DNA of 63,602 nucleotides, counting the filler, from Guillardia theta CCMP2712 (lineage: Eukaryota; Protista; Cryptophyta), in the NCBI RefSeq assembly GCF_000315625.1. It is 5 parts of 5 records of this genome, joined end to end, with 100 filler letters (N's around TTAATTAATTAA, not from the genome) between each part and the next. Parts side by side here need not be neighbours in the genome. Positions count along the whole stretch, not along the records: positions 36,723 to 60,102 come from NW_005434398.1; 4 more parts are not named here. One strand, written 5' to 3'. Made by a program: the position numbers and the translations under genes. Position 1 is the stretch's first letter, and each line of letters begins with the position of its first letter. Positions 37,396 through 59,940 of this stretch are shown in pieces. A model generated the notes under the pieces. The model made no database searches. It was not told the origin of the DNA and was given only the letters and a program-made list of their open reading frames with translations.

Positions 37396-37410
37396 AGAAA
37401 ACCTCTACCG

Positions 37411-38481: not shown

Positions 38482-39258
38482 GGACTGGATCTCGCAGGGC
38501 GCTTCAAGATTCTTTCACTAAGTCAAAAAAAAAGGAGAGAATTCTATATATATTAATATTAAAGAGAGTAACTGGTACAAATAAGTGTACCGCATATATA
38601 TGTAATTTACTCAATTATCAGTACTGATCGCCGGTACAAATTAGTACCAGAGTTTTGAACCTTAGGCATTTCAAACGATCACGCCAACAATGCGTGCAAG
38701 GTACTGAAACTATGCATGTTTCGCGATAAATGTGTCCATCAACTGCAATTTTTTCAAAGCCATTCATGTTCACCTTCAAGTTCATCATCTACACACACAT
38801 TCCAGGCTTCCAGGCTTTGGCTTTGCATGAACCTAAACTATCCTCTGGACTTCCCTCTTTCTTCACTCCTGTCTTTCTTCTGTCTAGTGCATATGATCAT
38901 GATGTTCCAATCCCTCCTCCTACCATTTGCTTCTGTTAATCTACACCCATCACCCCCCCCCCGCCCCTTCCNNNNNNNNNNNNNNNNNNNNNNNNNNNNN
39001 NNNNNNNNNNNNNNNNNNNNNNNNNNNNNNNNNNNNNNNNNNNNNNNNNNNNNNNNNNNNNNNNNNNNNNNTGGTAGGTTTCATCTCTCTTACTCTTCCC
39101 TCCCTCCCTCCTTCCTTGGCATTCATGATGGTTTCTTGCGAGCCTTCCCTCCCACTCCTCACAGACTATGCTTGCGACTTCTTTCCATCCACCTATCCCA
39201 ACCTCTCTTGTCCGCGTCTCTTTTGGCATCTTTATTTTATACCAAGCTTCAGTTCCGC

Positions 39259-42200: not shown

Positions 42201-42476
42201 TGCCATCGGTGCGTCGGGATCATTGAAAACGGACAGTATGTCAAACTCATCTCCTTCCCGCGTCCGTTTACGTGGCCTGCCACCCACCCCAAGTCTCTTG
42301 CCGCCTCTCTGACATGTTCCGCAATAGTCCCCTTGATCGCTATTAGCACGTTGAAAGGCACATAGAATATGGAATTTTTTTTGGCAACTTCGACATACCT
42401 TCAACTGTGCATCATCTCTTTCCCGCAACTGACAATCAGGTCCAAATAAGCATGTGCTGCCATTTTCAGTCGCCAT
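39259..42476 (-). mobile_element. Crypton tyrosine-recombinase transposon gene with N-terminal PHD-like zinc finger, two introns and one frameshift
   Basis: Tyrosine-recombinase residues CRS, TKTDQ, HSLRKG, RANW, QDRY. Removing introns 40985-41033 and 40896-40945 gives GPGAPTVYIRANWKIGDTQDRYI. Also GDQFAGRILAG...LPPHF and HMVPSNFTFP...WW..G..IRPF. Frameshift near 41718. Confidence 0.88.
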
Positions 42477-43726
42477 GTCACCCTATGTTGATGCTGCGTG
42501 TTTTCAGTTCCGATGATATATCGCGATGTTTTGCCCCAATCCTGCAATGTGACCAGGCCCAATCCTGAAGACTGGTGTAAGATGGAAGGGATTGCTTGGC
42601 AAACAGCGAGAAATGAGTGCATACCGGATGATGAAGGATGAAATAAGCTGGAAGGCGACGATGGAATGCTTGTGGTGCTCTTGGTTGTACCACTTGGTTG
42701 TACCACTGTGGTAGTTTGCATTGTAGCACCGGTACTTTCAAAATGTAAACGTTACCTTCACCCCTTCTGCAGTGGGTTTTAGATGGGGTATCAATTGACC
42801 CACCCCATGGGATTACAGGCATGTATCACCCCCCACCCCCCTTCCTTCCTACTTGTGCGATCCTCTATCACTGTGTTTTTCTTTCCCTTGTGTACCGGTC
42901 GTACTGAAAATTAGTACGTCATATCGCAGTTTTCAAGGGCGTCAGTATGTAAAAGGACAATTGAAGGACCGGTCCCTATTAATCATTTTATCCCCCGATG
43001 CCAGCGCTCTAAAACATAAATAGACAACAAATTGGGATTTTAGGGCACTTTTTTCAAATTTTACCAAAAAAGAGAATCCTAAGCTTTTTTTGGAGGCGCC
43101 CTACATCTTGGGATACAAGAAATTCAAATTAAATTCGCGTTGTAAGCTCGCGGTACATCAAATTGGCCTCTGGTACAAATTATTCATCGTACATTAAATT
43201 GCCTCTGGTACAACAATTTCATGGTACATTAATTCGAAAAGCTCTCGTTTCAATAGTCGGTGGAAATTGTGGGTGTATTCCACCAACTTTTGAATTTGCA
43301 ATTCTGGGTCCGAGGTCCCATATTTGATTTACTCAATTTTTTGATGTACCAGCATTCCACCTGTAATTGGCGTACCGAACACGCCTACTACCCCATAATA
43401 AACTAGACTTGAAAAATTTCAGACCCCCCCGGGGAGGGTTATTTTGGTACCATATCCCCCCTAGATGGAGCAAGGTTGGAACGTATTTATACGTTTTGGG
43501 CATATTCCGGGCCTCTCCGGCGATCGCGGGTATCACCGGGACAAACAGCTAGCAAATATGTAAATTTCAATGGAGAACTCGAGTTGTGCAGAGTCGGCTG
43601 GAAACGGCTCGTACATCCCCGTTGCGTTACACTACTACTGACCATGTTAGTCTTAGGAATGCCTCGTGTACATTCTCGGAAGCTCTCAAGGCATCCACCA
43701 TTATGACATTTGGAGCGAGCTAAACA

Positions 43727-44878
43727 TTGCTTTTGTTTATTCCCTGTGGAAGTGTTTGCTTCTTTTACGCTATGAGGAATGTGAATGTGTTTCTTTGTTT
43801 TGTTCTGTTGTGTTACTGGTCGATTGGTACGAAATTTTTATACTTTGCACCGTATTCGCTGACTACAAACTTGGTACAACTTTCTAAATTTGAAAATGCC
43901 AGCATCGTGAAACAATTACCATTGTTCCAGGATGTCGGTCTTTCATGCAATGTCGACTTGAATGATCGGAGCCTTTCTCAGCCCTTCATTTTTGTTATGT
44001 TCGGAACCCGAGCATTCTTACCCTTGATATTAAATTGGCTGTGCAATACATTGTTGTTTTCCGGTATACACAATAGGACTGTAATCATCGTAGATGACTA
44101 TTTTAGCTCGAATGCATTGTCGTCTTACAACGTTGGGTTGTGTATGACTTCCAAGCTTCATTTAAATCACACTGGTTTTCACTACAACACTTTCGGTTAC
44201 TGGCAGTTGGTCCAGCAAAGAGTTCGCATAATTGAATACCTCACAGCACTGAAAATTCCGATCCTCCTTTTTGAGCCAGATGCTTTGTGGGTTCGAAATC
44301 CTTTAGAAGATGATGAGCTCATGAATGCTGAAGAAGATCTTGTGGGTTTTAATGATGATGGCAATTTTGGTTTTGGGTGGCTGAGGTTGACTACTTCCGA
44401 ATCTGTTCATGCATTGATGCAAGCAGTACGTATTCAATTTGACAAACAATTACAAAATGTTGTGAACTTAGATTACAATCATCCTCTTTCTATGGCAGGA
44501 GAGCAACATGTCATGGTTAACCTTCTGAAAAATCGAAAGAAAGAGGCTGGATTTTCCAACATAACCACAAGAATGTTGACGGAATGCAAATATCTGAGTG
44601 GCAAGTGGTATGACGGAGGCAGGGGGGGCAATGGAGAGTCAGTGAGGAAGAAGTGTAATGGTTTTCCTGTGGTGATCAACAATAATTGGATCGTGGGCAA
44701 TGAGGCTAAAATAGCACGTGCAAAACGTTGGGGCCATTGGTTCCTCCCAGATGATCTGAACGGTACGTGTGGTTCAACAAGGTTTTTGGAGGGTGCCATG
44801 TATCGAATGCGCCACTCGATTAAGACTGCAAAACCTTTCAATGGGCCACCTCGGCAGGATGAGTGTCCGCTCTGCTGA
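43727..44878 (+). CDS. Nucleotide-diphospho-sugar transferase (GT77 / Nucleotid_trans-like), type II membrane
   Basis: N-terminal TM; LNWLCN, Y..L...RV, LLFEPDALW..NP, EQ, SGKWY and NNWIVGNEAKIARAKRWGHWFL. Confidence 0.85.
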   Translation: MLLFIPCGSVCFFYAMRNVNVFLCFVLLCYWSIGTKFLYFAPYSLTTNLVQLSKFENASIVKQLPLFQDVGLSCNVDLNDRSLSQPFIFVMFGTRAFLPLILNWLCNTLLFSGIHNRTVIIVDDYFSSNALSSYNVGLCMTSKLHLNHTGFHYNTFGYWQLVQQRVRIIEYLTALKIPILLFEPDALWVRNPLEDDELMNAEEDLVGFNDDGNFGFGWLRLTTSESVHALMQAVRIQFDKQLQNVVNLDYNHPLSMAGEQHVMVNLLKNRKKEAGFSNITTRMLTECKYLSGKWYDGGRGGNGESVRKKCNGFPVVINNNWIVGNEAKIARAKRWGHWFLPDDLNGTCGSTRFLEGAMYRMRHSIKTAKPFNGPPRQDECPLC

Positions 44879-45403
44879 GTAACAATTCAGAAACTGGATT
44901 CTGCAAAACAATTAAACATCTACGAAGCTGCACGTCTATTTTTGAGTGATCCAGCATCACTTGCCTCGTTTGAGCTCTCGCATCTTACAAATCAGCTTCT
45001 GCGTCTCTTCTAACGAAGAATCAGGGAAATCACCCGCTGGCCCACGTGCAACCATACTTTCAAGATACGTGAGGAGACATGCACAAAAAACTATGTCAAG
45101 AGTCATCAAGATATTTGTTCTGGTCGTCACGTTCTTGAATTTTTCTTTCAGACTGATGACACAAGGAGACATCAGATCAGTCCAAATGAAGACTAAGAAA
45201 GCTCTCCATGTCCTGAGATGGAAACTTGGAGGAGATTTTAAAGTTTGTGATTAGCGGAGCTGCCGTCTTCATGAATCAGACGGATGGATGCCCCATATAG
45301 AACCTGAAGCACATTGCGCAATTGCTTTTTATTGTTTTGCTTGCTATCAGGGTCACCTACATTGAGAAGCAAATCTCAGCAAACGAGCGAGTAATAGGAA
45401 AAT

Positions 45404-46504
45404 TTAGCGAATTGGTCGAATATATTTAGGATTGAAAAACCAATTGCTTCTAACAAAATTGCCGTAGTAAGTATATTTTTGCGATTGAAGGAATGCAATG
45501 ACTTCCCTTTCCTTCTGTCGATCCAGCCCTTCTGCCTGCGGCCAGACTGAATGAGTCGCGAAAAATATAACGAAACAAGCAAACCTCTACGAGTATGACC
45601 GAAAATGTGTGAGATTCGAAATCAATGGTTTTCAAAACCTGCATTCAATCGTAAGGATCACCTATCTATGTACGAAAATATTTACCTCCAACTCACCGCC
45701 TTCAACATCTAAAGATAGCATATCAACATGGACAATAGCAAACATGTTGAGCACATATTCTAGTGGTACACACAGAATCTTAGTGAGCTGATAAGTGCGA
45801 TGCCATCTGTAACAAATTTTCATAACTGACAATGAAAAATGAAGTTCGACTCACCCTCGGAGAAACTGAGGGGACATAAATTGCAAAATCCCTTTGACTG
45901 CAGGATGTCCGCTTGTGACATAATCAACTACCGAAAGATTTGAACAAACAGCAGCATGAACTAAGATTTGACTCGGTCGATGGCTCACGAGCTTTGCAAA
46001 ATTAGAAGGATCGGCTTCGATGAGCAAGCCATGCCATCCAAAACTCTTTTCAAAAGCATGAGTATTGGAAAATGTCAAACCATCCAAAGCTCCGAGTTCT
46101 ACAAACGTTCCATTCCCTGCAAGACGTTTATGTTTGATTGAAGCGGAAAAAAAATTGCGATAAGCAAATTCATCCTCCCCACTCTGACTTCGCATGTGTA
46201 GTAGACTTCCATTTCCTGTTCGACTCCTTGGACGAGACAACATTTGCAATAATGGAGCATGTAATGTTCCACCTTGAAATTCTCCGAACAAACTTATATC
46301 AACCTTGTTGATGTTTGACCATTGTGATGACTTTGCGGGAGTCCCGACCAAATCACAACTACATTTCCTCAAACGAGTCGATGAACAAAGAGTCTCGAAA
46401 ACGAATCCGAACATGATGCTCGCGAGAAAAGCTGTTACAAGAGTAATGAGCAAACATCTTTTGAGATCGGGAGTCCGCACTTGATGTGGACATGCTAATT
46501 CCAT
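45404..46504 (-). CDS. FkbM-family (Methyltransf_21) SAM-dependent methyltransferase, 4 exons
   Basis: SQSGED, FVELGALDG..FSNT..FE...GWHGLLIEA. Spliced continuation gives VDMLSLDVEGGELE|VLKTIDF..VILVE|AEG...NWFFNPKYIRPIR*. N-terminal TM anchor. Confidence 0.88.
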
Positions 46505-46563
46505 AACCGGTGAAATCCTCGCACAACTGCCGGCGTGAACATAAAAAACCCAAGAAATTGTTT

Positions 46564-46762
46564 ACCGGTCACGGCCGCCCGGAGACATCAGCCGCCCGGA
46601 GACATCAGGCCCCCGGCCAATCTCCGGACACTTAGCCTCCTGGCGGGCCTCCAGGGGGTCTGAGGCGGGGCTGAAGGCTGCAGTCGGTCTACTGACGGGC
46701 CCGGCCGGCAGGATCCGTCGAGAAACAGGGGGGTCAAGGGAGGTTTTCTTCCCCCTGGGAGA
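46564..46762 (-). repeat. Inverted copy of part of the 332-bp terminal repeat unit
   Basis: Reverse complement matches TCTCCCAGGGGGAAGAAAACC...GGCCGTGACCGGT of the array at 58.5-59.9 kb, with a small internal duplication. Confidence 0.95.
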
Positions 46763-46914: not shown

Positions 46915-47009
46915 GGCACCGATGGCTTGGGATATTCAAGGGTCGCAAGACCAAGCGCGTCGTAGTATTCAAAAAAGATCCCTGAAACCCTGCATGTGGG
47001 CGGGAATTG

Positions 47010-47205
47010 CAACCCGAGTAGCTGTAAAGTTTTTAGGATGGGTCAGGCCAACCCTGCCCGACGGGCCAGACGCTGCAGAATAGCTGTAAAATTTTTCGAT
47101 CGTGTAGTAATGAGCATCGGGCCAACCCTCAGGCCAAGCCAACCCTCCCCGGGAAGCTGTAAAATTTTTCATTGAGTAGTAAAAAGCGACGGGCCAACCC
47201 CCAGC
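47010..47205. repeat. Three imperfect ~65-70 bp iterated units with AGCTGTAAA(A/G)TTTTT and GGCCAACCC cores
   Basis: Cores at ~47020, 47082 and 47155; GCCAACCC occurs four times. Confidence 0.8.
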
Positions 47206-47290
47206 CACAAAAAACACACGCCAACGAATAAGGTTATGCGCCCCGAGCCCGGCGATCCTATTTGACCAGGCCTCCCGTGCGACTCACAAG

Positions 47291-47590
47291 ATGTACTTTA
47301 CACATTCCAACGGAGAGAGGGTCACCATCGGGAGTGACAGCCGGTTGACGGACCTGGAGGTGTTCATGAGGGCCAAGCCGTACCTCAACCGTAAGCTAAA
47401 CATCCACTACGGCAGCGGTCAGAGGGTAAGGGTGTACGACGAGCCCGAGCTCTCCGTGGTCAGCCGCATGGTTGCGGCCTACTACAATTTCGAGCTAGAG
47501 CAAGATTCCGATCTCTTCGAAGACCCTATCTTCAAGTCTAGCCTGTGGAACACATGCCTCTTTGCCCAAAGCGAGGACGGTCGGGGATAA
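47291..47590 (+). CDS. Hypothetical virus-like protein (may continue by frameshift to 47730)
   Basis: ATG ORF of 99 aa with TATTTGA at 47259-47265 upstream; an overlapping frame 47545-47730 continues past the stop. Confidence 0.6.
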   Translation: MYFTHSNGERVTIGSDSRLTDLEVFMRAKPYLNRKLNIHYGSGQRVRVYDEPELSVVSRMVAAYYNFELEQDSDLFEDPIFKSSLWNTCLFAQSEDGRG

Positions 47591-48022
47591 TCCCCGTCGA
47601 TGAGGCCAGGCAGGATGTCCATCATGCAACGGACAATGCGAGCAGTGAAGGTGAGGATGAGATCGGCCAATGCGAGGAAAAATACCGTAAGTGGCGACAC
47701 CTATTTATGAAATGCGGCATTGCGTTCTGATGAAGAGGGAGCAGCAGTAATCCTTGAAGTTCTCATATGTGCTAAGGCATGAGGTAGACTCACAAATCTC
47801 CTCCTCCACCGCCACATCCTTCGTCGCACACACGATGCCGCGCAGCTCTGATACAAAATCCGACGCACTCATCTGAGGCCGGCCCGGCATTGCTTGCCCC
47901 TACGCTTGCCGTTGAGCCCCGCGACCGTTTTTTTTTAAAAAAAAAAGAATTCAAATCCCCCTCCGGACCCTTTTTTAAAAACAGGGCCGCCACTGGCCAT
48001 TCCCACGCACCACCTACCACGC

Positions 48023-48289
48023 ATGGCCACCACGCCGCAGCTCGCCCCCTGGCTCATCAAGTCGCTCAACGAGGACACCATATTCGTCAAGCTTGCAAGA
48101 AAGGCAGAATGCAGCGAGGATGAGGACGACTTCGACGGGATCCTGTCCCCGCTGCCGACCAAGGTTGATCTGCAGGTGCCAAATACCCCAGTGAAGAAAA
48201 GGAAGACCTTCACGCCGATCCACTCGCCGGTAGAATCCGACGCCGAATCCTCCTCCCTATCCGACTCGGACTTCTCCTTGAATGAATAA
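48023..48289 (+). CDS. Small acidic/Ser-rich protein with NLS-like TPVKKRK
   Basis: 88-aa ATG ORF, upstream TTTTAAAA, AATAAA overlapping the stop. Confidence 0.6.
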   Translation: MATTPQLAPWLIKSLNEDTIFVKLARKAECSEDEDDFDGILSPLPTKVDLQVPNTPVKKRKTFTPIHSPVESDAESSSLSDSDFSLNE

Positions 48290-48309
48290 AAAAAAAGGGA
48301 TGCATATGC

Positions 48310-48460
48310 ATGCAGGGTACCTTTGACGGGAATTTCAGCACCTGTGTGATGTGCGGCCCTGGGTTTGTCTATTCTTTGAACACTTCGACTTGCCAGGATG
48401 TCAACGAGTGCTTGGACGCTTCTCTCTGCCCGGCCAACTCCACCTGCATCAACACCTATG
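48310..48460 (+). pseudogene. Calcium-binding EGF-like domain fragment
   Basis: CGPGF......CQDVNECLDASLCPANSTCINT, broken after NTY and joined out of frame to the next ORF. Confidence 0.7.
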
Positions 48461-51400
48461 TGCGTGATAGAACCGGGTCAGACCTACGGCGCCTGCTCCT
48501 GCTTCCTTACCAAGGTCACCCCGCAGTCCTGCACGGCGTCGCAGGTGGGGCATTCGGTGAACTATAAGCTCTCCGGGCTATGCATGGCGCAGGTGACCAG
48601 CAGCATGGGCGGGTTCAGCGCCGCGTCGAGCTCCACCAACACGATCAGCTACAAAAACCTGCTGGCCACACCCTGCTACAACGCCGACCCGGCCAATATG
48701 TACTGCTACAGCGTCTACAGCTCGGCGTTGAGCTACTCCCCCATGCTGGTCTCCTTGGGGGTGAGCGGGATATCAGGGTCGGGTGGTCAGGGGCCCTACG
48801 GTAGGCGACTGCTCGGCATTGACGACGGGCCAGAGTTCTTCAGCCATGACGATGCATGCATGGACGCATGGGATGAGTTCCTTGCTACCAACAAGAGCAC
48901 AAGGGTGATGGCGGGCTGTGTCACCCGCTTTGCCGCCACTTACGACGTTGTTTCCCAGCACGGCATGTTAGACTACATCCCACCGAATATGTTTGTCAGC
49001 TGGTCGGACTTCATTGCAACCGTGGGAGAGAGACCAGAGTCCCTTCTTATCCTGCTCTACTCGCCAAGGATGGCGGTCGACCTTATCTTCAGGACTCCCA
49101 CCTTCAACCGCCTTTACCGGTACTACTTCATCTGGGTGTCAGCTCTGTCCGATGCCTATTTCGACATTGCCGTGCATAAGAGGCTCGACGCCAACGGCAG
49201 CCTGCACTACGAGGTCGACGCGGATGGTGGCGTCTTCATCAACGGCCACAATATCAGTGAGATGACGCTGATACTGCTCAACCTGCTCCACGGCGCGCAC
49301 CGCCACTTCAATGCCACGGAGACAAACCACACCCTGAGCCTCGCGGTGAGGAACAGGGAGTCGGTCAGGAAGCTCCTCTCGATGACGAGCCTCTCGCCCC
49401 TCGCCACCGAGCTCCTGTACAACGGCAGCGGGGTGGAGGAGAGGGTCACCCTACGCCACCTCATGCAGTTCACCTCCTGGAAGACACAGATGAAGGAGGT
49501 CCAGAGGTTCACGGGCTCCACGGCCCTGAACAACGGCGTCCAGCAATCCGTGGGGACGGCCACCGATGCTGCCTGGGTGAACAGCCCCTTTGCATGGCCC
49601 ATCAACTACGACTTCGGCGGGACGGTGCTCCAATGCCAGCTTCCATTACGTCATGATCTTGAATTACTCAATAATGCATCTGGTACAAAGGCTGGCCCAG
49701 TGGGCCAGATCCAATTAGTCCTGAGGGGGGCATAGCTTGCCGTCCGGGGTCCAGAAGCACACATATCTGCTTTAGACTACCCTCCTTTCCCCTATCAAAT
49801 GTCGGGTGGTGTAGCACTACCCCGTTTGTGGTTGTGAGGTCCTTCAAGGGGGGTAGACGAGGCAAATTGAGGCTGTTCTTGGAGCCTGTTAGTACCGGAT
49901 CTCGAGCTCCTCGTACAGTTCTAATACGCTTTTAAGGCGATTTCAGGGTGATGGTGAACTGTGTTCCACCCCCCCGCACCCAACAAACGGCTAGTTTGAA
50001 TTTACATGCATGAGTACCCCCATTTTAACCCCAGGTTCTCTTGGGAATGCGAGGGTAGGTGATTGGAAACAAGACACCTCCACCCCCTGCTTTCCAAGTT
50101 TGAAATATAGAAAAAGGGGGTAGGGGTCACCCCTTTCCTTCACTTTCCCCAAATCCCCCCTCCCTCGACCAAGCAAGAGATGGCGAACCGATCCCTTGCT
50201 CGCGCGCGACAACCAATTTGAATGGTGAGAGACTTCGAATCTATGTGTACTGTCATGTGGATGAATAGAAAACTTCTCTTTGAACCTATCCATAATGGTT
50301 GAGAACCACTCTTGGATTCCAAGAGGAAAGAGAAGATTTGAATCTGAGTTCGTTGAGTTGCTTGTGAATACAAAGAAGCTTTGAAGCATGGTGAGAATAG
50401 TTTTAACTGTATGTTAATGATGATGTTTGCTTTCTTGATCTTGTGATGGTGTAAATATGCATCAAATACTGTTTTGAGCGGCAAGGATTCAAATTTGCAT
50501 GGTTACATTATCCCAACAAGCATGTCACTTGCCTTCTTGTGTTTGCACTGAGACGCCTCGATGATGATGTATCTTAGTTATATAAGCGATTTTCACACTT
50601 TGAGAAGGAAAACATGAGGAAAGTGGATCAGGGTGCGATGAGAGATGCAACCTTCGAATACTTGATGGAAATGCGATCCTCCTTGTTGCGTTGCCACCCT
50701 AGCATCCTGGTACCAGAATGCTACGTGAGATGAAAGTGAAGCAGATTTGAAGATACTTGCTGTTGCTTTTCTATGTTTGTGATGGATTTGAATCAGGTGA
50801 ACGCCAAAGAAAGTGGCGTCACCAATGATGCTTGCACATTGTATGCAGATGTATGTGACTCTCTCTCTGTTGGTGACATTCATTTCATGCAATGAGGAAC
50901 TTGCACGTCACATACTCTAGCATGGTACTATGCATGTGATAGCGTGCAACTGTTTCATTCACAGGGTAGCTTCAATAAAGTCAAATCATCACATCCTTGC
51001 TGGTTAGATTCGTCTTACATGCCAATGCTCGTCGCCATGTAATTCTTTACATTCTTGTGCTTGTGGCTTTGTTAAGCAGCCACACTCCACCATGCCGGGC
51101 ACTGAGCCTGGCATCGTGCACATGATGGTCATACATATAGCTTTACAAGCAACTAATCGAATAGGCAAACAAAGATGAAGAAAGCATGAGACATCAGCTG
51201 CCTCCAGACAAGGTTAGCTCTCTGCCAGCGAACGCATCAGCCACTTGAAAGCTGAATCATGATTGAGATCGCCAGAATTGTCTGTCGCACTGCAGTTGAT
51301 TTTTGAAAACAACTCTCATGAGCTGTACTAGCCATTCCTTCTCTCAGAGTCTTCTCTCATGCGATTCCATTGCCGAGGAGTTTTCTCTCGTGCTTTCAAG

Positions 51401-53431
51401 TATTGATAGTTGAAGGCTGGACTTGAATGCCGGGCGTTGTGCATCAGTGCACTTCTCTGAGCAGTGGAAGCAGAGCCATTGCAACAAGCCCATCACAGCT
51501 AAGATGATAAATCTGTCGGTGAAAGAAGTTCAAAGCCAAAGAGGACGGAAGGTGTAACTTGCGGTTTGGAATAAATCTACAGCCAGACACGAGTCTAACT
51601 TGTACATAGTCATAATTGTGACAATTGTACGACATGTATGAATGAAATATATTCTATTGATGTTACTTTGTCTAGAACAAGAACATGCATCTGAAAGGTT
51701 GTAGTGTAATCCCAACATTTTACACATGCGAAGCATCATTATCTAATGTCAAAATATAATGAGGTAGCGATGCAAATCATGATGAAAACTTCAAGACGTT
51801 TGAATTCGGACTGGCATCTTGCATGGCGCCACAGATGATTCAAATCATGAAGTGCAGATCTTGAAAATCTCGAGGTGCTTGCACTAAAGCGGCTTGACAA
51901 CTATCGTTCAGCTTCATTCTAACTCAGAAGAAGACGCTGCCTGTTCCAAACATCTCCAAGATTGCATCAATCTCAAGTTTTTCATTCATGCCAAACCAGC
52001 ATTCTCAGCCTTCAATCCCATGAGAAGCGATAATCGAGGTGTGACGTACCTCTACGCAATCATACTCCTTCACCACCTGCTTCAGACCTCCATTTCTTCA
52101 TGTCAGACTTGATACTTGTTTGCTTTGAACGAAGAACACAAATGCCTGTTGCTTCAGCTCTTGCATGCGCCGACGCCATGCATCATGGAGGGCGCTTCGG
52201 TACTGCGTGCCGGCGTGTAGATGGCGACATGTCGGGCGTGTAGGGGAAGCCGGGGAGTACTCGAAGTCAATTTGAAACTGGATTTGAAATTTTACATACT
52301 TGTAAACAGTACCAGAAAGCAACTTTAAAACCTGTAGTAGACCACCCCACCCCACAATTTGATGTGTTTGCGAACAACCCCGTTCAGGAAGAAATGGACC
52401 AAATTTCAAGATCATGACGTAATGTGTCGAGGTCGGTTGTGCTGGTCAAGGATGCGTTCACCAACACCTCGCTCTACTACACCAACGGGCATGCCCTTGC
52501 CGCCACCCCCAGGGCTATCGTGTCGGGCAGTTGGCCCTTCAGCAACCTCCCCTACCGCGGCCCCGTCCCCCCGCTCAAGCAGCCGGCGAATCAGAACTTC
52601 TTCAACATGATCGTGTATCAGGCGACCGTGTGGATCGACAATACGCCCTTCAATCGCCAGTTCTTGTATGACCTGTTCGGGGCATTGCCTGGCGAGATCC
52701 TCGACCTATCCAAATGCGACAGGCAGGCCGTGATGCTCTGCACTCGCCACCACTACACCCTGCTGGTATCCGGCTTCGTGATCGCGGTGGTATGGATGGG
52801 GCTGTCACTGGTTCTGACGTCCTTCCGCATCCCCCACATCACAGCCCTGCTGTGGACCACATACCCGGCCATCGTGGTGTATTATGCCTTTGGCGTCTCC
52901 CCGCTTTGCTTCCCGATGATTCCGACCTGTCTACTGGAGGACCTTGTCAATGTCCTCAATTTCTTCTTCCCCGCCACCATCCAGTTCCCCGACAGCCTGC
53001 AGGCAAGCCCGGGGTGCCTTTCCAACGCTCATAATTCCACGGAGAGGGCGGCCTGCATCCTATCCTGCTCCCAGCAGCCCTTTGATTATGTATCGTGGGA
53101 GGCGGAAATCTCCTGGTGGACCTGCCTCGTATCCACGGGTCTCTGCAGGTCGGTCGATAGCTTCGTCACCAGCCGCCCCGTCCTCAACAAGCTCACCTCC
53201 CTGCACAAGAACCTCGCAGTCAAGGCCGCGATTGTGGAAGGCAACAACATGGATATGATCGTGGCGCAGTCGGCATGCGCCACCCTGAACATCTGGAGGA
53301 TCATACCCCTCATCATGATCCTCTTCCTCGTGTTCTACGCCTTCAGCGTCATCGCTACCTTCCCCTTCTTCCTCTTCAATGAGGTCATCAGGCTGGCGAT
53401 CCAGAGCGTGATCATGACGCACACGGACTAG
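48459..53431 (+). pseudogene. Large Cys-rich multi-pass membrane/surface protein interrupted by an insertion (segments ~48459-49643 and 52425-53431)
   Basis: Removing 49644-52424 joins ...CAG CTT C|TG TCG AGG... in frame (QCQLLSRSVVLVK). Cys-rich ectodomain, GRRLL motif, N-glycosylation sequons and C-terminal TM helices. Confidence 0.8.
49644..52424. mobile_element. Non-autonomous TIR element, perfect 20-bp TIRs, no TSD
   Basis: CATTACGTCATGATCTTGAA (49644-49663) and TTCAAGATCATGACGTAATG (52405-52424); AT-richer, ORF-poor interior. Confidence 0.88.
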
Positions 53432-53488
53432 TTATTGAATGGTGGTCTTTACTTAGAACCTTACAGAATCAGAGCCTACGTCCAATGC

Positions 53489-53845
53489 CTAATAAAAGAT
53501 AGACAGGAGCAAGGAGTACAACTCCTCGTCGGTGGTCGGGACAACGAACTCGAATGGCTCGAGGCCATGCAGACTCCTCAGCCTCTTGATGCTGTGGTGC
53601 AGGCTGAGATAAGCTCGGATGAGCGCAATGAAGTTAGCACGGTTGGCAGGAAGGACGTGGATCCTCTTCGCAACCTCATTCAGCTGCTTGCGAGTGGGTT
53701 TGCAGTTGTGCTTCAAGTCCAGATGCAAGACGATGATGCATCGCAATTCCTCCTTCGTGCTACGAGCAAGTCTCTCGTAAATAGAGATTTGTTCACCTCT
53801 GGCCTGATTCCTGGTAGTAGAGTCTGTTTGACTGCGTGTGATCAT
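53489..53845 (-). CDS. Small basic protein, tandem paralogue 1 (MITRS... family)
   Basis: Aligns with 53946-54299 (MITRS.T..T.RN..R, KPTR.QL..VA..I, EELYSL.LS); TATTTAA ~39 nt upstream. Confidence 0.75.
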   Translation of the reverse strand: MITRSQTDSTTRNQARGEQISIYERLARSTKEELRCIIVLHLDLKHNCKPTRKQLNEVAKRIHVLPANRANFIALIRAYLSLHHSIKRLRSLHGLEPFEFVVPTTDEELYSLLLSIFY

Positions 53846-53883
53846 TTGAAGAAATGAACCGTGCCGGTAGAGAGTCGGGTGAC

Positions 53884-53890
53884 TTAAATA
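53884..53890 (-). promoter_or_regulatory. TATTTAA box
   Basis: Conserved with its downstream leader in both paralogues; the same motif lies upstream of other island genes. Confidence 0.55.
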
Positions 53891-53945
53891 TTGAATGGTG
53901 GCTTTTATTTGTAAGCTTACAGAATCAAAGACCAATATCTCATGC

Positions 53946-54299
53946 CTAATCAAGCACAGACAGGATCAAGGAGTACAACTCCTCCGCGGAGTCAGCGAAA
54001 ACCAACTCATATGGCTGATTTCGATCTAGACCCATCAGCGACCGGATCTTGTAGTCATTGTAATGGACAAGGAAGATGCGGTTCAGGAAAAGACCACGTT
54101 CGCAAGGACATCCGTAGATCTTCCTCGCGACCTGCATAAGCTGCTCACGGGTGGGTTTGCCTCTCTTCATGTTGGAATGGAAGCGGACAACCTTTCGGAT
54201 GACTTCCTTCTCATGCCGAATATGTTGCTTGTATTGTGATACCATCGTATCTCTGATCTTATTCCTTCTGGTTGCGTTTGTTTTACTGCGTGTGATCAT
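53946..54299 (-). CDS. Small basic protein, tandem paralogue 2
   Basis: As for paralogue 1; same spacing of TATTTAA (54338-54344) to the ATG. Confidence 0.75.
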   Translation of the reverse strand: MITRSKTNATRRNKIRDTMVSQYKQHIRHEKEVIRKVVRFHSNMKRGKPTREQLMQVARKIYGCPCERGLFLNRIFLVHYNDYKIRSLMGLDRNQPYELVFADSAEELYSLILSVLD

Positions 54300-54337
54300 T
54301 GTAGGAAATGAACCGTGCCAGTAGAGCATCGACTGAC

Positions 54338-54344
54338 TTAAATA
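54338..54344 (-). promoter_or_regulatory. TATTTAA box
   Basis: Same position relative to the ATG as at 53884. Confidence 0.55.
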
Positions 54345-54433
54345 TCGCATCGAAATCTCGGCATGTGTAACAAAAAAAATCGATCCATCCCCTGCGCTCA
54401 AGGTGACACTGACTCATCGGTGCTTTGAGATGC

Positions 54434-55411
54434 ATGCAAGTGAGTTGCGATGAGTGCTTCGTCTGCAAGCGCTGCCGGGACGGAAGGGTGTCGAGATGCA
54501 AGGCGTGCAGGCCCTGCTTAGACTGCAGTGATCAGAGGGTGAGATGTTGGAGGGGGGTCAGCGCTCCGTTCCTCCTCCCGCGGGGGTTGAAGGGGCATCG
54601 GTGCGACTGGCAGACCATCGATATCGACCTTGCGGGTTGCAGAGAGTGCGGTGCCATCCATCGCTGCGATGCATCCTCCTGCCCCGTGTCCGAGGAGAAT
54701 GACAGCCATGTATGTCTCATCACGGGCAACTGCGTGAGGATGAAGAGGTTCACGAGGGACGAGTTCATGGACAGCGTGGTGATCATGGACCTGCCCGAGG
54801 CGATGGATAGGGAGGTCAAGCTGCTTGTCGAGATGCGGGAGGTGAAGGATAAGGTGGAATGGATCCTTATGTCCTCCACGGCCCTTCAGAGCTTCGACCA
54901 GGAGCGTGGGCGTATGGAGCAGAAGCACCGCCATCTGATGTGGAAGGCGTTGAGGGAGGTGAAGGTGCAGGGGAAGATCCCGAACCTCTGCGAGGTGATG
55001 ACGAAGATACTGTATGCCACCAACAAGATCAGGGTCTGCAGCAACACCTTCCAGGAGGACCTCCGCTCCCTCATCTCGGAGCGCTGCACCCACAGCATCA
55101 CCCGCTTCCTGAACATGATGGGTCAGAGGTTCAAGAGCGTGCTTTCAAGTCTGAAGAGCACCGTGCTCATCATCGGGACGCTATACCTGATGCGCATGGG
55201 CATATCGATGAACAACATCATCCTGCTTCCCCGCATTCCCCAGCTTCAGCTGCTCCTCCCCATCGAGACACACCTCAAGAGCTACTTCCACGTCAAGTGC
55301 AAGAGCATCACGGAGGTCGAGAACATGATCAAGATGTGCCTCCGGGGGCTGAGCTCGGGAGAGCTGGAGAGAATGGGCTTCACCGTGGTGGAGAACGGGG
55401 TCGTGGTGTGA
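54434..55411 (+). CDS. UL92-like (herpesvirus late transcription factor family) Cys/His-rich protein
   Basis: CRECGAIHRCDASSCPVSEENDSHVCLITG = C-x2-C-x3-H-x-C-x4-C-x10-C-x2-TG. Extra N-terminal CxxC repeats, intronless, AATAAA just after the stop. Confidence 0.7.
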   Translation: MQVSCDECFVCKRCRDGRVSRCKACRPCLDCSDQRVRCWRGVSAPFLLPRGLKGHRCDWQTIDIDLAGCRECGAIHRCDASSCPVSEENDSHVCLITGNCVRMKRFTRDEFMDSVVIMDLPEAMDREVKLLVEMREVKDKVEWILMSSTALQSFDQERGRMEQKHRHLMWKALREVKVQGKIPNLCEVMTKILYATNKIRVCSNTFQEDLRSLISERCTHSITRFLNMMGQRFKSVLSSLKSTVLIIGTLYLMRMGISMNNIILLPRIPQLQLLLPIETHLKSYFHVKCKSITEVENMIKMCLRGLSSGELERMGFTVVENGVVV

Positions 55412-55849
55412 GAGCCAATAAAATGTTTCAATCGGTACTGGGTGCTGGTGGTCGGGAGATTCTCCCCAAGCCATGCAGTACCAATTTGCGGTGAGGAAAA
55501 TGGTGAAAGGCGCTGTCTTCTGCCCGTTCTGCCATTGGCCCCCACATCTCAGGCCCTGGAGGCGCTGCCCCTGCCCTTGGGCGAGGCTCATACCGGCCTT
55601 CCAGGGCGCAAGGCGCGGGTGCGAGCCGAAGAGGAAGGAAGGATAGAGATTAGGTTTTATTTTACTTCTTCTCGCGAAGACTTAATAAATGATCGTTGCA
55701 TTTGAGGATGGCGTAGATGGCCTCTGAGAAGAGGCAGGCTTCGGATCGCACGTGCAATACCTTTTCTTCGCTGCTCTCCTTGCCGTCCAAATCTTCGTAC
55801 TGCGCGACATCGTAACACGCTGTGACCTCTAAGTGTTAAATACACGGGT

Positions 55850-56221
55850 CTAAAAGAATCCCCAATGCCTCCGCTTCTTGACGCGCACGATGTCCACCTC
55901 GGTCAAGGTCACCGGGGCGGTGGAGCTGAGGACCTTGACGTGAAGGGCGATCCTCTTCCCCTCGAGGGGCACGACGCCAACGTTCTGAACCCTGACGGGG
56001 TTTGCGTCGCGTATGAGCTGCAGGTCCGAGAGGCTCAGGATGCTGTCGGAGGTCTTGGCGATGATGACGAAGCCATCCTTGGAGGTGCGGACCTCGTAGT
56101 CGTGGAAGCATAGGTCCCTGGAAAGACCCTGCATCACCGCTACCACGTTCTCGATCACCACCCTGTCATCGGCCTTGATGCCAGAAAGCATGCCCTCCAT
56201 CGGGAGCACCGCACTTGCCAT
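55850..56221 (-). CDS. Hypothetical virus-like protein with a basic C-terminus (VKKRR)
   Basis: Intronless ORF, ATG at 56221, TATTTGAA at 56248-56255. Confidence 0.7.
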   Translation of the reverse strand: MASAVLPMEGMLSGIKADDRVVIENVVAVMQGLSRDLCFHDYEVRTSKDGFVIIAKTSDSILSLSDLQLIRDANPVRVQNVGVVPLEGKRIALHVKVLSSTAPVTLTEVDIVRVKKRRHWGFF

Positions 56222-56332
56222 TGATGACGATGGCCACACCTGAAGGGTTCAAATAGCTGCATTCGCGTGGGAGTGGTTTGCATGTGTGTTCTTGTTTTTT
56301 AATATCTATAACAGAAAGGTCTATCCTACCTA

Positions 56333-57655
56333 CTACTTGAAGATCCATCCGCAGCTTGCATAGAAGAATGCCATCAGGGCGATGAGCATAGCTGGGGACA
56401 TGATGATTACATCCAGACTTGGGTCATAGATGCCAGGCTTCAAGAAGCAACCCATGGTGTTGGAGACGGTGCGCACGTTGGCGGTGCGGTAATAAACCAC
56501 GCCGATGCTGAAGAGGGGGAGAACGCTTTGTATGACCATGTCGTCATCGCTGAGCAAGGCCAAGACGATGCAGTTCACCGCAACGATGATGTATGTCACG
56601 ATGCGGCGAGAGTAGAGTACGTACTCGGAAAGATAGGGTGCTACCTCCCATAGGCGCACCTTGTTGATGTTCCCGTGGTTCCCGATGCAATTGTTTGCAG
56701 GCTTGTCCTCGGTGTATTGCATCTCGCCCCTCATATCGTTTGTAATATTTGGGATGTACGGTATCTTGTTGTATGTCTGTGATACGGATACCATGAAGAC
56801 ATTGAAGCACAAGCAGGAGTACACCATGGAATAGATGAACATTGAGATATACTTGGTGACTATCTCATCGATCATACCCTGGCGCAGATTGTCGTAGTAA
56901 TACATGTTCTGCTTCAGTTGCTCGAACGTGTCAATGTCATTGCTGGAAGATTTTTTAGACACCACCATCTTCTTGTACATCTGATCCAGTTTCGACTGAT
57001 AGTAACTGGAGTATTGCTGCGATTCGTCGATGAGCAAGTCGATCTCGGCAGCCTCACGAGCTGTTTTGTGCAGGAATGTATACCCCACCATCAGCGTCAA
57101 TGTGCAGTACATCAACAAGGTGAAGTGAACCCAGCAGTGATTGTAGAAAAAGAAGGTGTTGTATCCCGTCTCAGAACCCACCTTTATCAGGCATGTTATA
57201 TGATTGTAGGCCATGCCCAACAAGTACCATCCGACCAGGTCAAACGTTATGAACATGACGATATCAACGTTCCCGCTGTTGTTCAGGTCCGTCGTCATCA
57301 GAAGCAGCGAGTAGTACAGAATCTGTAATATGGCTATGTATGGAACAATGTCCGGTATAGCCAAGTCGTAATAACTCCGCATAATGTACTCGAATTTGTA
57401 TTTGATTGCTAGGGTCATTAAAGCAATCAAGAGCTTCCAAAGGAGCATCAGGAACATGACCTTTGTCGGGTGAATGTAGAGGCTTAGCATGAAAGCGTTG
57501 CCGAGTAGGAAGTATCCGCCGACCGTGGAGGCATGTGAGACAAGTTGATCAACCTTGTCTTTTACCAGGTAGTACAATAGACCAGTCTTGATATCGGTTA
57601 TTTGTGTCCTCAACCATACAGGAACCATCCTGAGGTCCTTAGGGCAAATCAACAT
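56333..57655 (-). CDS. Multi-pass membrane protein of unknown function
   Basis: 440-aa intronless ORF with many hydrophobic segments; TATTTAA at 57660-57666 favours the ATG at 57628. Confidence 0.8.
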   Translation of the reverse strand: MLICPKDLRMVPVWLRTQITDIKTGLLYYLVKDKVDQLVSHASTVGGYFLLGNAFMLSLYIHPTKVMFLMLLWKLLIALMTLAIKYKFEYIMRSYYDLAIPDIVPYIAILQILYYSLLLMTTDLNNSGNVDIVMFITFDLVGWYLLGMAYNHITCLIKVGSETGYNTFFFYNHCWVHFTLLMYCTLTLMVGYTFLHKTAREAAEIDLLIDESQQYSSYYQSKLDQMYKKMVVSKKSSSNDIDTFEQLKQNMYYYDNLRQGMIDEIVTKYISMFIYSMVYSCLCFNVFMVSVSQTYNKIPYIPNITNDMRGEMQYTEDKPANNCIGNHGNINKVRLWEVAPYLSEYVLYSRRIVTYIIVAVNCIVLALLSDDDMVIQSVLPLFSIGVVYYRTANVRTVSNTMGCFLKPGIYDPSLDVIIMSPAMLIALMAFFYASCGWIFK

Positions 57656-57659
57656 TCAC

Positions 57660-57666
57660 TTAAATA
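57660..57666. promoter_or_regulatory. TTAAATA/TATTTAA box in a minimal divergent intergenic region
   Basis: Lies ~32 nt from the minus-strand ATG (57628) and ~37 nt from the plus-strand ATG (57703). Confidence 0.5.
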
Positions 57667-57702
57667 CTTTACAGCAGAAGTTGCGCCCACGTCATTGCAG
57701 GG

Positions 57703-58500
57703 ATGGAAAAAAGGCGCGCTCAAAACCCCGGCGCGGGGGACCAAATCCGTCCAAACCCCGAGACAGCGGTGCGCATGAGCCTGTGGAGCGACCCGCTCTG
57801 TGCGAGGGCGTTGATGCATCTCTGCATATGCGATAGGACATTTCTCCCAGGGGGAAGAAAACCTCCCTTGACCCCCCTGTTTCTCGACGGATCCTGCCGG
57901 CCGGGCCCGTCAGTAGACCGACTGCAGCCTTCAGCCCCGCCTCAGACCCCCTGGAGGCCCGCCAGGAGGCTAAGTGTCCGGAGATTGGCCGGGGGCCTGA
58001 TCTCTCCGATCCTCACCACCTTTATGGGGGAGCACTTCAGCATGTCGGTGAACATGCGAAAGTCCTACAACAGCCGGGACTACGAGGGGCTGCACCTTCG
58101 CCTCGACCCTGTAGAGAGCGCGAAGCTCTTCGATTACGCCATCGACCTGGTTGAACGCCGCGTGCCGTACAATTTCGCCGACCTGCTGTACCAACCGATG
58201 AAGGCCGTCCTCCCGGATAGCGGATTCTTTGAGGACGTCCCTAACGAAAGCTCCCTGCAGGTCAAGAAGGTCTTCTGCTCCCAGGCTTTCGTCCTAGCCC
58301 TGCGCAACAGCCTGCACAACGACGACCTCGCCGGGGCACTCATCGACGAGAGCCCAATCCAGCGGAAGAAGCTGCTCTGGAGGCTGATCAGCGAAAACAG
58401 CCGGCTCTGCACTCCCAGCGACCTCTACCATATCATCAGGCCTTACTGCAGGAGAGTGGACATGGACCGGCTCCGGCACGGCCATTTGTCTTACACATAA
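57703..58500 (+). CDS. Permuted papain-like NlpC/P60-type protein, disrupted in frame by a repeat copy
   Basis: PYN...KKVFCSQ...NSRLCTPSDLY motifs; 57835-58007 is repeat-derived. Confidence 0.55.
   Translation: MEKRRAQNPGAGDQIRPNPETAVRMSLWSDPLCARALMHLCICDRTFLPGGRKPPLTPLFLDGSCRPGPSVDRLQPSAPPQTPWRPARRLSVRRLAGGLISPILTTFMGEHFSMSVNMRKSYNSRDYEGLHLRLDPVESAKLFDYAIDLVERRVPYNFADLLYQPMKAVLPDSGFFEDVPNESSLQVKKVFCSQAFVLALRNSLHNDDLAGALIDESPIQRKKLLWRLISENSRLCTPSDLYHIIRPYCRRVDMDRLRHGHLSYT
57835..58007 (+). repeat. Internal direct copy of half of the 332-bp unit
   Basis: Identical to AGGACATTTC...GATCTCTCC of the array units. Confidence 0.95.
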
Positions 58501-58539: not shown

Positions 58540-59940
58540 TGGCCGGGGGCCTGATCTCTCCGGGCGGCCGTGACCGGTCAGCGGACCGTGTCAGCAGGCC
58601 CGTGACATGTCAGCCGGCTGACAGGGGCCGTGACCCGGCTGACAGGCTCACCTGACCGGTCACGTGACACATCACGTGACCGAGACAAGACTTTTTTATA
58701 TCGCAGATCCAAAAACCCATAGGACATTTCTCCCAGGGGGAAGAAAACCTCCCTTGACCCCCCTGTTTCTCGACGGATCCTGCCGGCCGGGCCCGTCAGT
58801 AGACCGACTGCAGCCTTCAGCCCCGCCTCAGACCCCCTGGAGGCCCGCCAGGAGGCTAAGTGTCCGGAGATTGGCCGGGGGCCTGATCTCTCCGGGCGGC
58901 CGTGACCGGTCAGCGGACCGTGTCAGCAGGCCCGTGACATGTCAGCCGGCTGACAGGGGCCGTGACCCGGCTGACAGGCTCACCTGACCGGTCACGTGAC
59001 ACATCACGTGACCGAGACAAGACTTTTTTATATCGCAGATCCCAAAATCCCATAGGACATTTCTCCCAGGGGGAAGAAAACCTCCCTTGACCCCAGGGGG
59101 AAGAAAACCTCCCTTGACCCCCCTGTTTCTCGACGGATCCTGCCGGCCGGGCCCGTCAGTAGACCGACTGCAGCCTTCAGCCCCGCCTCAGACCCCCTGG
59201 AGGCCCGCCAGGAGGCTAAGTGTCCGGAGATTGGCCGGGGGCCTGATCTCTCCGGGCGGCCGTGACCGGTCAGCGGACCGTGTCAGCAGGCCCGTGACAT
59301 GTCAGCCGGCTGACAGGGGCCGTGACCCGGCTGACAGGCTCACCTGACCGGTCACGTGACACATCACGTGACCGAGACAAGACTTTTTTATATCGCAGAT
59401 CCAAAAACCCATAGGACATTTCTCCCAGGGGGAAGAAAACCTCCCTTGACCCCCCTGTTTCTCGACGGATCCTGCCGGCCGGGCCCGTCAGTAGACCGAC
59501 TGCAGCCTTCAGCCCCGCCTCAGACCCCCTGGAGGCCCGCCAGGAGGCTAAGTGTCCGGAGATTGGCCGGGGGCCTGATCTCTCCGGGCGGCCGTGACCG
59601 GTCAGCGGACCGTGTCAGCAGGCCCGTGACATGTCAGCCGGCTGACAGGGGCCGTGACCCGGCTGACAGGCTCACCTGACCGGTCACGTGACACATCACG
59701 TGACCGAGACAAGACTTTTTTATATCGCAGATCCAAAAACCCATAGGACATTTCTCCCAGGGGGAAGAAAACCTCCCTTGACCCCCCTGTTTCTCGACGG
59801 ATCCTGCCGGCCGGGCCCGTCAGTAGACCGACTGCAGCCTTCAGCCCCGCCTCAGACCCCCTGGAGGCCCGCCAGGAGGCTAAGTGTCCGGGAGATTGGC
59901 TGGGGGCCTGATCTCTCTGGGGGGGCCGTGACCCGGTCAC
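58540..59940 (+). repeat. Tandem array of a 332-bp GC-rich, palindrome-rich unit (~4.2 copies, probably continuing into the gap)
   Basis: AGGACATTTC starts at 58721, 59054, 59413 and 59745; one unit carries a 27-bp internal duplication. Confidence 0.97.

What the first reader, a model, noticed from the sequence alone, without database searches (positions are those of the whole stretch)
47259..57666. Shared TATTT(A/G)A box 25-40 nt upstream of island genes, resembling a viral TATT late promoter
Seen: TATTTGA at 47259 (+, ATG 47291), TATTTAA at 53884-53890 and 54338-54344 (-, both ~39 nt from the ATG), TATTTGAA at 56248-56255 (-), TATTTAA at 57660-57666 (between divergent ATGs) and another at ~55836-55842 (-). 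Known: the UL92-containing complex recognises TATT rather than TATA boxes. Inference: the factor and its cis-element co-occur here, suggesting a conserved late-gene regulon.
Basis: partly seen in the sequence, partly recalled or inferred. Interest (0 to 1): 0.72.

Follow-up and report, generated by a model that had tools for sequence, protein, structure and literature searches.

The report
Mirusvirus TATA-type promoter boxes in alga
A short TATTT(A/G)A box sits 32-45 bases before several genes of a virus fragment embedded in an algal genome; it is likely that virus family's ordinary TATA-type promoter rather than a herpes-style signal reserved for late genes, although the family encodes one clear and one tentative relative of the herpes late-gene factors.

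Summary
The six boxes are at the stated coordinates and are not chance: 7 TATTTRA in the 8.8-kb island against 0.86 expected, and 7 against 5.45 in the host part. They amount to four independent, well-placed boxes plus one before a truncated gene; two are a tandem duplicate. The island is a fragment of an endogenous cryptophyte mirusvirus, syntenic with metagenomic contig L001. There all 3 TATTTAA lie 35-39 nt before an ATG, but the capsid-like gene has TATATA, and two orthologous promoters read TATATA or TATAAA. In a 227-kb relative with its own TBP, TATAAA, TATATA and TATTTA share one position (median -27/-28). DNA polymerase has TATTTAA, the capsid gene TATATAA, and the herpes variant TATTAA is not enriched. 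So the box is likely a general TATA-class promoter read by TBP, not a late regulon. UL92 is not the DNA-binding subunit, and no UL87 was found. Left open: the island is skewed to TATTT, the UL92-family match is solid, and a neighbour in L001 weakly folds like ORF66/UL49. A TBP-centred forerunner of the herpes late complex is therefore not excluded.

The parts
47259..47265 (+). TATTTGA box, 32 nt before ATG 47291
47291..47590 (+). 99-codon ORF, no Pfam match; two DNA runs differ by one base at 47578, so the gene probably runs on to 47730
48310..53431 (+). Large predicted membrane-protein gene in pieces (48310-49735 and ~52425-53431), split by a transposon; its start was not located
   Evidence: one gene is inferred
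49644..52424 (.). Multi-copy insertion with 20-nt perfect terminal inverted repeats; excluded from the island counts
53489..53845 (-). 118-codon ORF, paralogue of 53946-54299
53884..53890 (-). TATTTAA box, 45 nt before ATG 53845
53946..54299 (-). 117-codon ORF, tandem paralogue
54338..54344 (-). TATTTAA box, 45 nt before ATG 54299; duplicate of the 53890 box
54434..55411 (+). UL92-family gene (325 aa), PF03048 E 4.9e-8 over cut-off; no TATT box before it
55473..55646 (+). Small Cys-rich ORF, homologue of the 77-aa gene that follows UL92 in L001; no box
   Evidence: 0 of 5000 shuffles
55662..55835 (-). ATG-less frame weakly like the 3' half of the syntenic 107-aa L001 gene; likely a 5'-truncated remnant
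   Evidence: (91 of 5000 shuffles as good), synteny
55836..55842 (-). TATTTAA box 8 nt after the stop of the 123-aa gene; likely the orphaned promoter of the remnant
55850..56221 (-). 123-codon ORF, 57% identical to the 126-aa L001 gene
56249..56255 (-). TATTTGA box at -34; the L001 orthologue has TATATAT at -35
56333..57628 (-). 431-codon predicted membrane protein (from Met10 of the 440-codon ORF); same position as the 414-aa L001 gene but no detectable similarity
57399..57405 (+). TATTTGA antisense inside a coding sequence; not placed before a gene
57660..57666 (-). TATTTAA box, 38 nt before ATG 57628 and 43 nt from the divergent ATG 57703; L001 has TATTTAA at -35 before the positional counterpart
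57703..58500 (+). Divergent ORF with a satellite-repeat copy inside it (57833-58008)

Best explanation
The boxes lie 32-45 nt before gene starts in a viral fragment of an algal genome and are likely the general TATA-class core promoter of a cryptophyte mirusvirus, predicted to be bound by a TATA-binding protein, with TATTT(A/G)A being this lineage's preferred spelling and likely not a late-gene signal. Shown: position, enrichment, absence of enrichment in host DNA, synteny with a capsid-bearing contig, and three co-positioned variants (TATAAA, TATATA, TATTTA) that swap between orthologues in relatives. Inferred: TBP (likely virus-encoded, since a relative and most mirusviruses carry a canonical one) binds the box and starts transcription about 25-33 nt downstream, leaving 5' leaders of a few to ~20 nt. 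The UL92-like protein would at most be an accessory partner of TBP.
For: Island 7 against 0.86 and host 7 against 5.45. L001 carries a capsid-like gene (hit to G001 capsid E 6e-29), heliorhodopsin and the same gene order around UL92. Of 15 L001 starts, 10 have a box within 70 nt: TATTTA 3, TATATA 3 (including the capsid-like gene), TATAAA 4. Orthologous promoters differ: window TATTTGA (-34) against L001 TATATAT (-35); L001 309-aa gene TATTTAA against TATATAA in its G001 homologue. G001 has a two-repeat TBP, DNA polymerase B, RNA polymerase subunit 1 and terminase. Of its 223 ORFs of 100 aa or more, the first box at -50..-12 is TATATA 52, TATAAA 46, TATTTA 38, TATTTG 10, TATTAA 8, none 69; medians -28, -27, -28 for the three main ones. 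TATTAA occurs 12 times against 16.9 expected. DNA polymerase has TATTTAA at -28; capsid TATATA at -35; terminase TATAAA. At ~52% protein identity the TATTT variant is shared in 3 pairs and differs in 8, of 33 boxed orthologue pairs (permutation p 0.14). TATTTAAA is a functional polymerase II core element in yeast (PMC4457894, passages). TBP is a mirusvirus core gene, 59% of genomes (PMC10132985, passages).
Against: All 5 independent island boxes are TATTT and the island has no TATAWAW (0 against 1.0 expected). At the relatives' 30% share (99 of 333 boxed starts) 5 of 5 has p about 0.002; against a 3-of-9 count for L001, Fisher p 0.03 (the later count is 3 of 10). Two of six boxes are TATTTGA, a poor fit to the TATA consensus. 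G001-G005 are a different lineage (G001 has its own RNA polymerase) with no UL92-like hit in the five fragments searched, so the DNA polymerase test may not transfer. Between closer relatives (73% identity) the TATTT variant is conserved: 12 shared, 7 differing of 61 pairs, 0 of 5000 permutations. HCMV late factors also use TATAT and TATATAA (PMC8360532, passages), so TATATA before capsid genes does not exclude late-factor use. No TBP gene lies in the window or L001.
Confidence: 0.62

Rival explanations
1. The boxes are late promoters read by a herpes-like late-factor complex that includes the UL92-like protein, a UL49/ORF66-like protein and a TBP-fold subunit; TATTT and TATAT mark late genes, TATAAA early ones.
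For: UL92 family: 29 of 36 aligned relatives match PF03048 and none a poxvirus VLTF3 model. The 581-aa gene just before UL92 in L001 gave gammaherpesvirus ORF66 at ranks 1, 2, 3 and 6 of 60,000 candidates (best E 6e-3, probability 0.80); it has a homologue named from Guillardia theta. In L001 the capsid-like gene has TATATAA, while TATAAA precedes heliorhodopsin, the 249-aa gene and, at -67, UL92. TATTTAA is a top-ranking HCMV late element (PMC8360532, passages). Island skew to TATTT.
Against: ORF66 match is weak: none at E<=0.001, TM 0.13-0.18, model pLDDT 65, no UL49 Pfam hit in 13 members. No UL87, UL79 or UL95 match in island, L001 or G001 proteins scanned, and none named in the searched supplements of PMC12768974. 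TATTAA, half of the herpes TATTWAA consensus, is not enriched in G001; DNA polymerase carries TATTTAA. No boxed island gene is a recognised virion gene. Heliorhodopsin promoters switch between TATTTAA and TATATAA or TATAAA among relatives.
Confidence: 0.25
2. The boxes are real promoters but are read only by the host's TBP and polymerase II; the UL92-like gene is an unrelated neighbour and the TATTT skew is drift or duplication.
For: No TBP gene in the window or L001. Some mirusvirus orders lack their own RNA polymerase (PMC12768974, section 10). Yeast uses TATTTAAA with its own machinery (PMC4457894, passages).
Against: Both held stretches are fragments. TBP is a mirusvirus core gene, and two genomes listed with a UL92-family gene also list a TBP (PMC12768974 supplement file 10). 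Host DNA in the window is not enriched for TATTTRA.
Confidence: 0.1
3. Chance AT-rich intergenic words, or 3'-end signals of neighbouring genes.
For: Few independent sites, motif chosen after the fact, one site intragenic, one before a truncated gene; AATAAA-like runs follow many stops.
Against: Shuffling each upstream 60-mer keeps its composition and never gave more than 1 of 8; look-elsewhere null 4 of 1500; held-out L001 2 of 14 starts with null 1 of 3000, and its third site also lies 36 nt before an ATG.
Confidence: 0.03

Closest known systems
Beta/gammaherpesvirus late promoters (TATTWAA) and the six-member late complex UL49, UL79, UL87, UL91, UL92, UL95
   Same: TATTTAA is one of the strongest HCMV late elements; spacing fits a box ~30 nt before the start; a UL92-family gene is in the island, and a tentative ORF66/UL49-like gene adjoins it in L001.
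   Different: No UL87-type TATT-binding protein found; relatives encode a canonical two-repeat TBP; TATTAA is not enriched; TATTTAA precedes a DNA polymerase gene; variants swap between orthologues.
Eukaryotic TATA and TATA-like core promoter (TATAWAWR; TATTTAAA in yeast ADE5,7, ADE6, CYC1 screen)
   Same: Spectrum TATAAA, TATATA, TATTTA at one fixed position before genes of all classes.
   Different: Very short leaders (box 25-45 nt from the ATG), boxes before about two thirds of ORFs in G001, and a TATTT skew including TATTTGA in this island.
Mirusviricota, cryptophyte clade E03 endogenous elements (PMC10827195 lists Guillardia theta)
   Same: The UL92-like protein matches Guillardia theta gene model GUITHDRAFT_122062; syntenic L001 has a mirusvirus-type capsid gene and heliorhodopsin.
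   Different: The window holds no capsid gene, so clade E03 itself was not tested; promoter boxes were not found described in my searches.

Membership tests
Beta/gammaherpes-type TATT late promoter system | TATTW box about 29-40 nt upstream of the transcription start | tested here: inconclusive
   Sequence fits and lies 32-45 nt before ATGs; starts not mapped.
Beta/gammaherpes-type TATT late promoter system | UL92/ORF31 subunit | tested here: met
   PF03048 E 4.9e-8, 33.4 bits over cut-off 21; 29 of 36 relatives match. Match covers residues 68-147 of 325 only.
Beta/gammaherpes-type TATT late promoter system | UL49/ORF66 subunit | tested here: inconclusive
   Not in the window. L001 581-aa gene: ORF66 at ranks 1, 2, 3, 6, best E 6e-3; no Pfam hit.
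Beta/gammaherpes-type TATT late promoter system | UL87/ORF24/BcRF1 TATT-binding subunit with polymerase II-binding domain | tested here: inconclusive
   No match in the proteins scanned, but all records are fragments; G001 has a plain 229-aa TBP instead.
Beta/gammaherpes-type TATT late promoter system | UL79, UL91, UL95 subunits | tested here: inconclusive
   No Pfam match; the 282-aa neighbour gave no fold match; other neighbours not folded.
Beta/gammaherpes-type TATT late promoter system | TATT marks virion/late genes, TATA marks early genes | tested here: not met
   G001: DNA polymerase TATTTAA, capsid TATATA, terminase TATAAA; L001 capsid-like gene TATATA. Caveats: G001 is another lineage, only two virion genes identified, and HCMV late factors also use TATAT.
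Beta/gammaherpes-type TATT late promoter system | Transcription depends on viral DNA replication and on the viral factors | not testable with these tools
   Needs an infection system.
TATA-class (TBP-read) core promoter | TATA or TATA-like word at a fixed position before gene starts of all classes | tested here: met
TATA-class (TBP-read) core promoter | A TBP is available and binds the box | not testable with these tools
   TBP gene in G001; none in the window or L001 fragments; binding untested.
Mirusviricota endogenous element | HK97-type mirusvirus capsid gene | tested here: inconclusive
   Absent from the window; the syntenic L001 gene matches the capsid-like gene of G001, which also has terminase, heliorhodopsin and TBP. 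Capsid identity rests on this context, not on a fold search.
Mirusviricota endogenous element | Viral genes flanked by spliced host genes | tested here: met
   Host transcript contigs with three 47-49-nt introns at 45534-45855 beside the island; DNA contigs cover the island.

The most novel reading that the evidence does not exclude
Mirusviruses run a forerunner of the beta/gammaherpesvirus late complex: a plain viral TBP plus UL49-like and UL92-like partners standing where TFIIA and TFIIB stand. In the UL92-bearing cryptophyte lineage its target has shifted from TATA toward TATTT, as in herpesviruses. That would place the origin of herpes late transcription in protist viruses.
Probability: 0.25. 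Interest if true: 0.8.

Novelty: new variant of a known kind. Interest (0 to 1): 0.45.

Why it matters
It gives a first sequence description, as far as my searches reach, of the core promoter of a recently found virus phylum related to herpesviruses: a TATA-class box just before most genes, useful for calling starts in mirusvirus genomes. As a TATA variant it is ordinary. The sharper question it makes testable is whether the herpes six-protein late complex grew from a TBP-centred complex already present in mirusviruses.

Tried and rejected
No whole genome is held for the window, so other Guillardia insertions and genome-wide host promoters were not examined. Expression: no RNA holder listed. 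Contigs of five runs guessed to be RNA cover the spliced host genes at 43.5-46.5 kb and none lies on the island's genes; one raw-read run gave 157 reads, nearly all partial. This is only a weak hint of silence and gave no start sites. Locus scans that found nothing: viral contigs with UL92, capsid (32), 581-aa family (51); genome contigs (52); the metagenome scan gave one locus (27). Four of five handles were not held, and L001 not. Solved-structure sequence searches: nothing significant. Atlas: no usable hit for the 581-aa protein (44); F-actin capping hits under 0.9 for the 309-aa protein, taken as no lead (73). VIA-align on the 581-aa model: best Z 4.6, short helices only (127). 282-aa model: no viral fold match (139). 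The window's UL92-like protein was not folded. The L001 row used mis-called antisense ORFs and was dropped; one search replaces it. The first comparison of the 55.7-kb remnant used the wrong frame and was redone. A branch-point reading of site 55842 was considered and set aside: no suitable donor was seen. Earlier findings: none returned. Print searches: mirusvirus+UL92 0 papers (12); mirusvir+TATT 0 (24); mirusvir+promoter+late transcription 2, listing only (17); VLTF2+UL49+herpesvir+homolog 0 (70); none of 20 listed of 210 mentions mirusviruses.
Full report
Setting. The window is eukaryotic scaffold DNA with gap linkers. The 325-aa ORF at 54434-55411 matches PF03048 UL92 (E 4.9e-8). Its best database hit is the Guillardia theta gene model GUITHDRAFT_122062, identical over the aligned part; other hits come from Hanusia phi and metagenomes. 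Guillardia theta is listed as carrying mirusvirus capsid genes of clade E03 (PMC10827195, passages). Spliced host genes end near 46.5 kb. The island runs from about 46,950 to 58,500, interrupted by a 2.8-kb insertion with 20-nt inverted ends.

The observation. In the island without the insertion there are 7 TATTTRA against 0.86 expected (0 of 200 dinucleotide shuffles); in the host part 7 against 5.45 (13 of 60). Of 8 independent island starts, 4 have the box at -25 to -50. Shuffling each upstream 60-mer never gave more than 1 in 5000 trials, and the best motif of the same form reached 4 in 4 of 1500. For this test I dropped 54299 as a paralogue and the 42-codon ORF, and used Met10 (57628) as the start of the 440-codon ORF; that choice was guided by the box and by L001, so it favours the count by one. 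The sites at 53890 and 54344 are one duplicated unit. The site at 55842 precedes a likely truncated gene: the frame that weakly matches the syntenic L001 gene has no ATG, and the ATG 32 nt downstream is in another frame. A seventh site at 57399 is intragenic. The UL92-like gene has no box.

A held-out relative. One metagenomic locus, L001, was found. It has the order UL92, small Cys-rich gene, 107-aa gene, 126-aa gene, membrane-protein gene, as in the window, with heliorhodopsin inserted, and a 1230-aa capsid-like gene. It holds 3 TATTTRA against 0.56 expected, all TATTTAA and 35, 36 and 39 nt before an ATG. So the element is real and conserved. But of 15 starts, 10 have a box within 70 nt, and they are mixed: TATTTA 3, TATATA 3, TATAAA 4; 5 have none. 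The orthologue of the window's TATTTGA gene has TATATAT at the same distance. Two of the TATAAA (-56, -67) lie next to upstream stop codons and may be 3'-end signals.

More distant relatives. The 282-aa L001 gene found nine viral loci, some near-identical. G001 (227 kb, estimated 29% complete) has a capsid hit, a two-repeat TBP, DNA polymerase B, RNA polymerase subunit 1, terminase and heliorhodopsin (194 of its 237 ORFs were scanned). Among 223 ORFs of 100 aa or more, the first box at -50 to -12 is TATATA 52, TATAAA 46, TATTTA 38, TATTTG 10, TATTAA 8, none 69, with medians -28, -27 and -28 for the three main words. Against 200 base shuffles TATAAA (66 against 18.2), TATATA (59 against 15.0) and TATTTA (39 against 15.6) are enriched, TATTTG slightly (12 against 5.5), TATTAA not (12 against 16.9). 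Of 15 replication, transcription and nucleotide genes picked by hand, DNA polymerase has TATTTA, 8 have TATATA or TATAAA and 6 none in range; of 2 virion genes, capsid has TATATA and terminase TATAAA at a downstream Met. Among boxed orthologue pairs the TATTT variant is kept between close relatives (12 shared, 7 differing of 61 at 73% identity; 0 of 5000 permutations) and not clearly between distant ones (3 and 8 of 33, p 0.14; 0 and 5 of 24; 4 and 7 of 29, p 0.06). No UL92-like hit was found in these five records; all are fragments.

What is known. In beta- and gammaherpesviruses TATT is bound by the TBP-like UL87/ORF24/BcRF1; UL92 is one of five other subunits, and some early genes also carry TATT (PMC4893493, passages). 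In AlphaFold 3 models UL49 sits where TFIIA does and UL92 where TFIIB does (PMC12197705, passages). HCMV late factors use TATTW and also TATAT, with TATTTAA among the strongest (PMC8360532, passages). TATTTAAA is a working core element in yeast (PMC4457894, passages). TBP is a mirusvirus core gene (PMC10132985, passages; PMC12768974, section 10). Supplement file 10 of PMC12768974 lists UL92-family genes in two genomes, one in an orthogroup of 313 genomes, and both genomes also list a TBP; UL87, UL49, UL79 and UL95 were not found in the 10 files searched. File 6 could not be read, stored files may be cut, and bioRxiv supplements are closed, so unseen tables may bear on this.

Mechanism. Shown: a start-positioned, virus-specific box in three main spellings that share one position. 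On this reading TATTTRA is a spelling, not a timing signal (0.62).

All 5 independent island boxes are TATTT (p about 0.002 against the 30% share in G001, G002, G004, G005; Fisher p 0.03 against L001), two are TATTTGA, and the lineage that supplied the DNA polymerase counter-example showed no UL92-like gene. The 581-aa gene directly before UL92 in L001, with homologues named from Guillardia theta and Hanusia phi and weak ones in 8 other viral records, gave gammaherpesvirus ORF66 as ranks 1, 2, 3 and 6 in a fold search (best E 6e-3, TM 0.13-0.18; model pLDDT 65). I had suspected UL49 from its cysteine pattern, a recalled resemblance, before the search. This is a lead, not an assignment. The 282-aa neighbour matched nothing. 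If the lead holds, mirusviruses have TBP plus two of the six herpes factors, and the TATTT skew may mark the shift toward herpes-like specificity (0.25).

Verdict. The late-regulon reading is not shown and fails the one class test available. New variant of a known kind; interest 0.45.

Noticed in passing
L001:8171-9916: 581-aa Cys-rich protein next to UL92; fold search ranks gammaherpesvirus ORF66 (UL49 family) first, weakly. It follows the 282-aa gene in L001 and in the viral loci inspected.
   Followed up: partly
L001:7326-8174: 282-aa Cys-rich protein with 302 database relatives, a confident core model and no Pfam or viral fold match.
   Followed up: partly
window 58540-59920, 57833-58008, 46591-46762: 332-bp GC-rich satellite; one partial copy sits inside the 57703 ORF and an inverted copy at the island's left edge; summed DNA contig depth there is about 12,000 against about 5 in the island.
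   Followed up: no
window 47013-47204: Three ~62-73-bp spaced repeats with A/T tracts at the island's left edge; possibly a viral origin or terminal structure.
   Followed up: no
window 47741-48295: Covered by a diverged, deeper DNA contig, so the 88-codon ORF may belong to a multi-copy repeat and not to the virus.
   Followed up: no
window 53433-53474: Third, truncated copy of the 456-bp duplicated unit, broken off at the position of the box.
   Followed up: partly
window 49685 and 55831-55846: A contig that matches the insertion's left end runs on into letters sharing about 15 nt with the 55842 box context; unexplained.
   Followed up: no
L001:6067-9916: Genes without their own box overlap the upstream gene or its stop codon, which suggests shared transcripts or coupled translation.
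   Followed up: no
L001:11550-11655: Short duplications of neighbouring gene ends flank the heliorhodopsin gene, as if it had been inserted.
   Followed up: no
window 36742-42476: DDE transposase ORF with a convergent partner ORF, and a group of unassigned ORFs at 39259-42476 that look like a recombinase-type mobile element (recalled resemblance, no Pfam hit).
   Followed up: no
window 43526-46534: Two convergent host genes (sugar transferase, FkbM-like methyltransferase) assembled in one RNA contig with three 47-49-nt introns in five runs.
   Followed up: no
G001 (L018:13260-16542): DNA polymerase B is in two consecutive ORFs of 782 and 284 aa.
   Followed up: no
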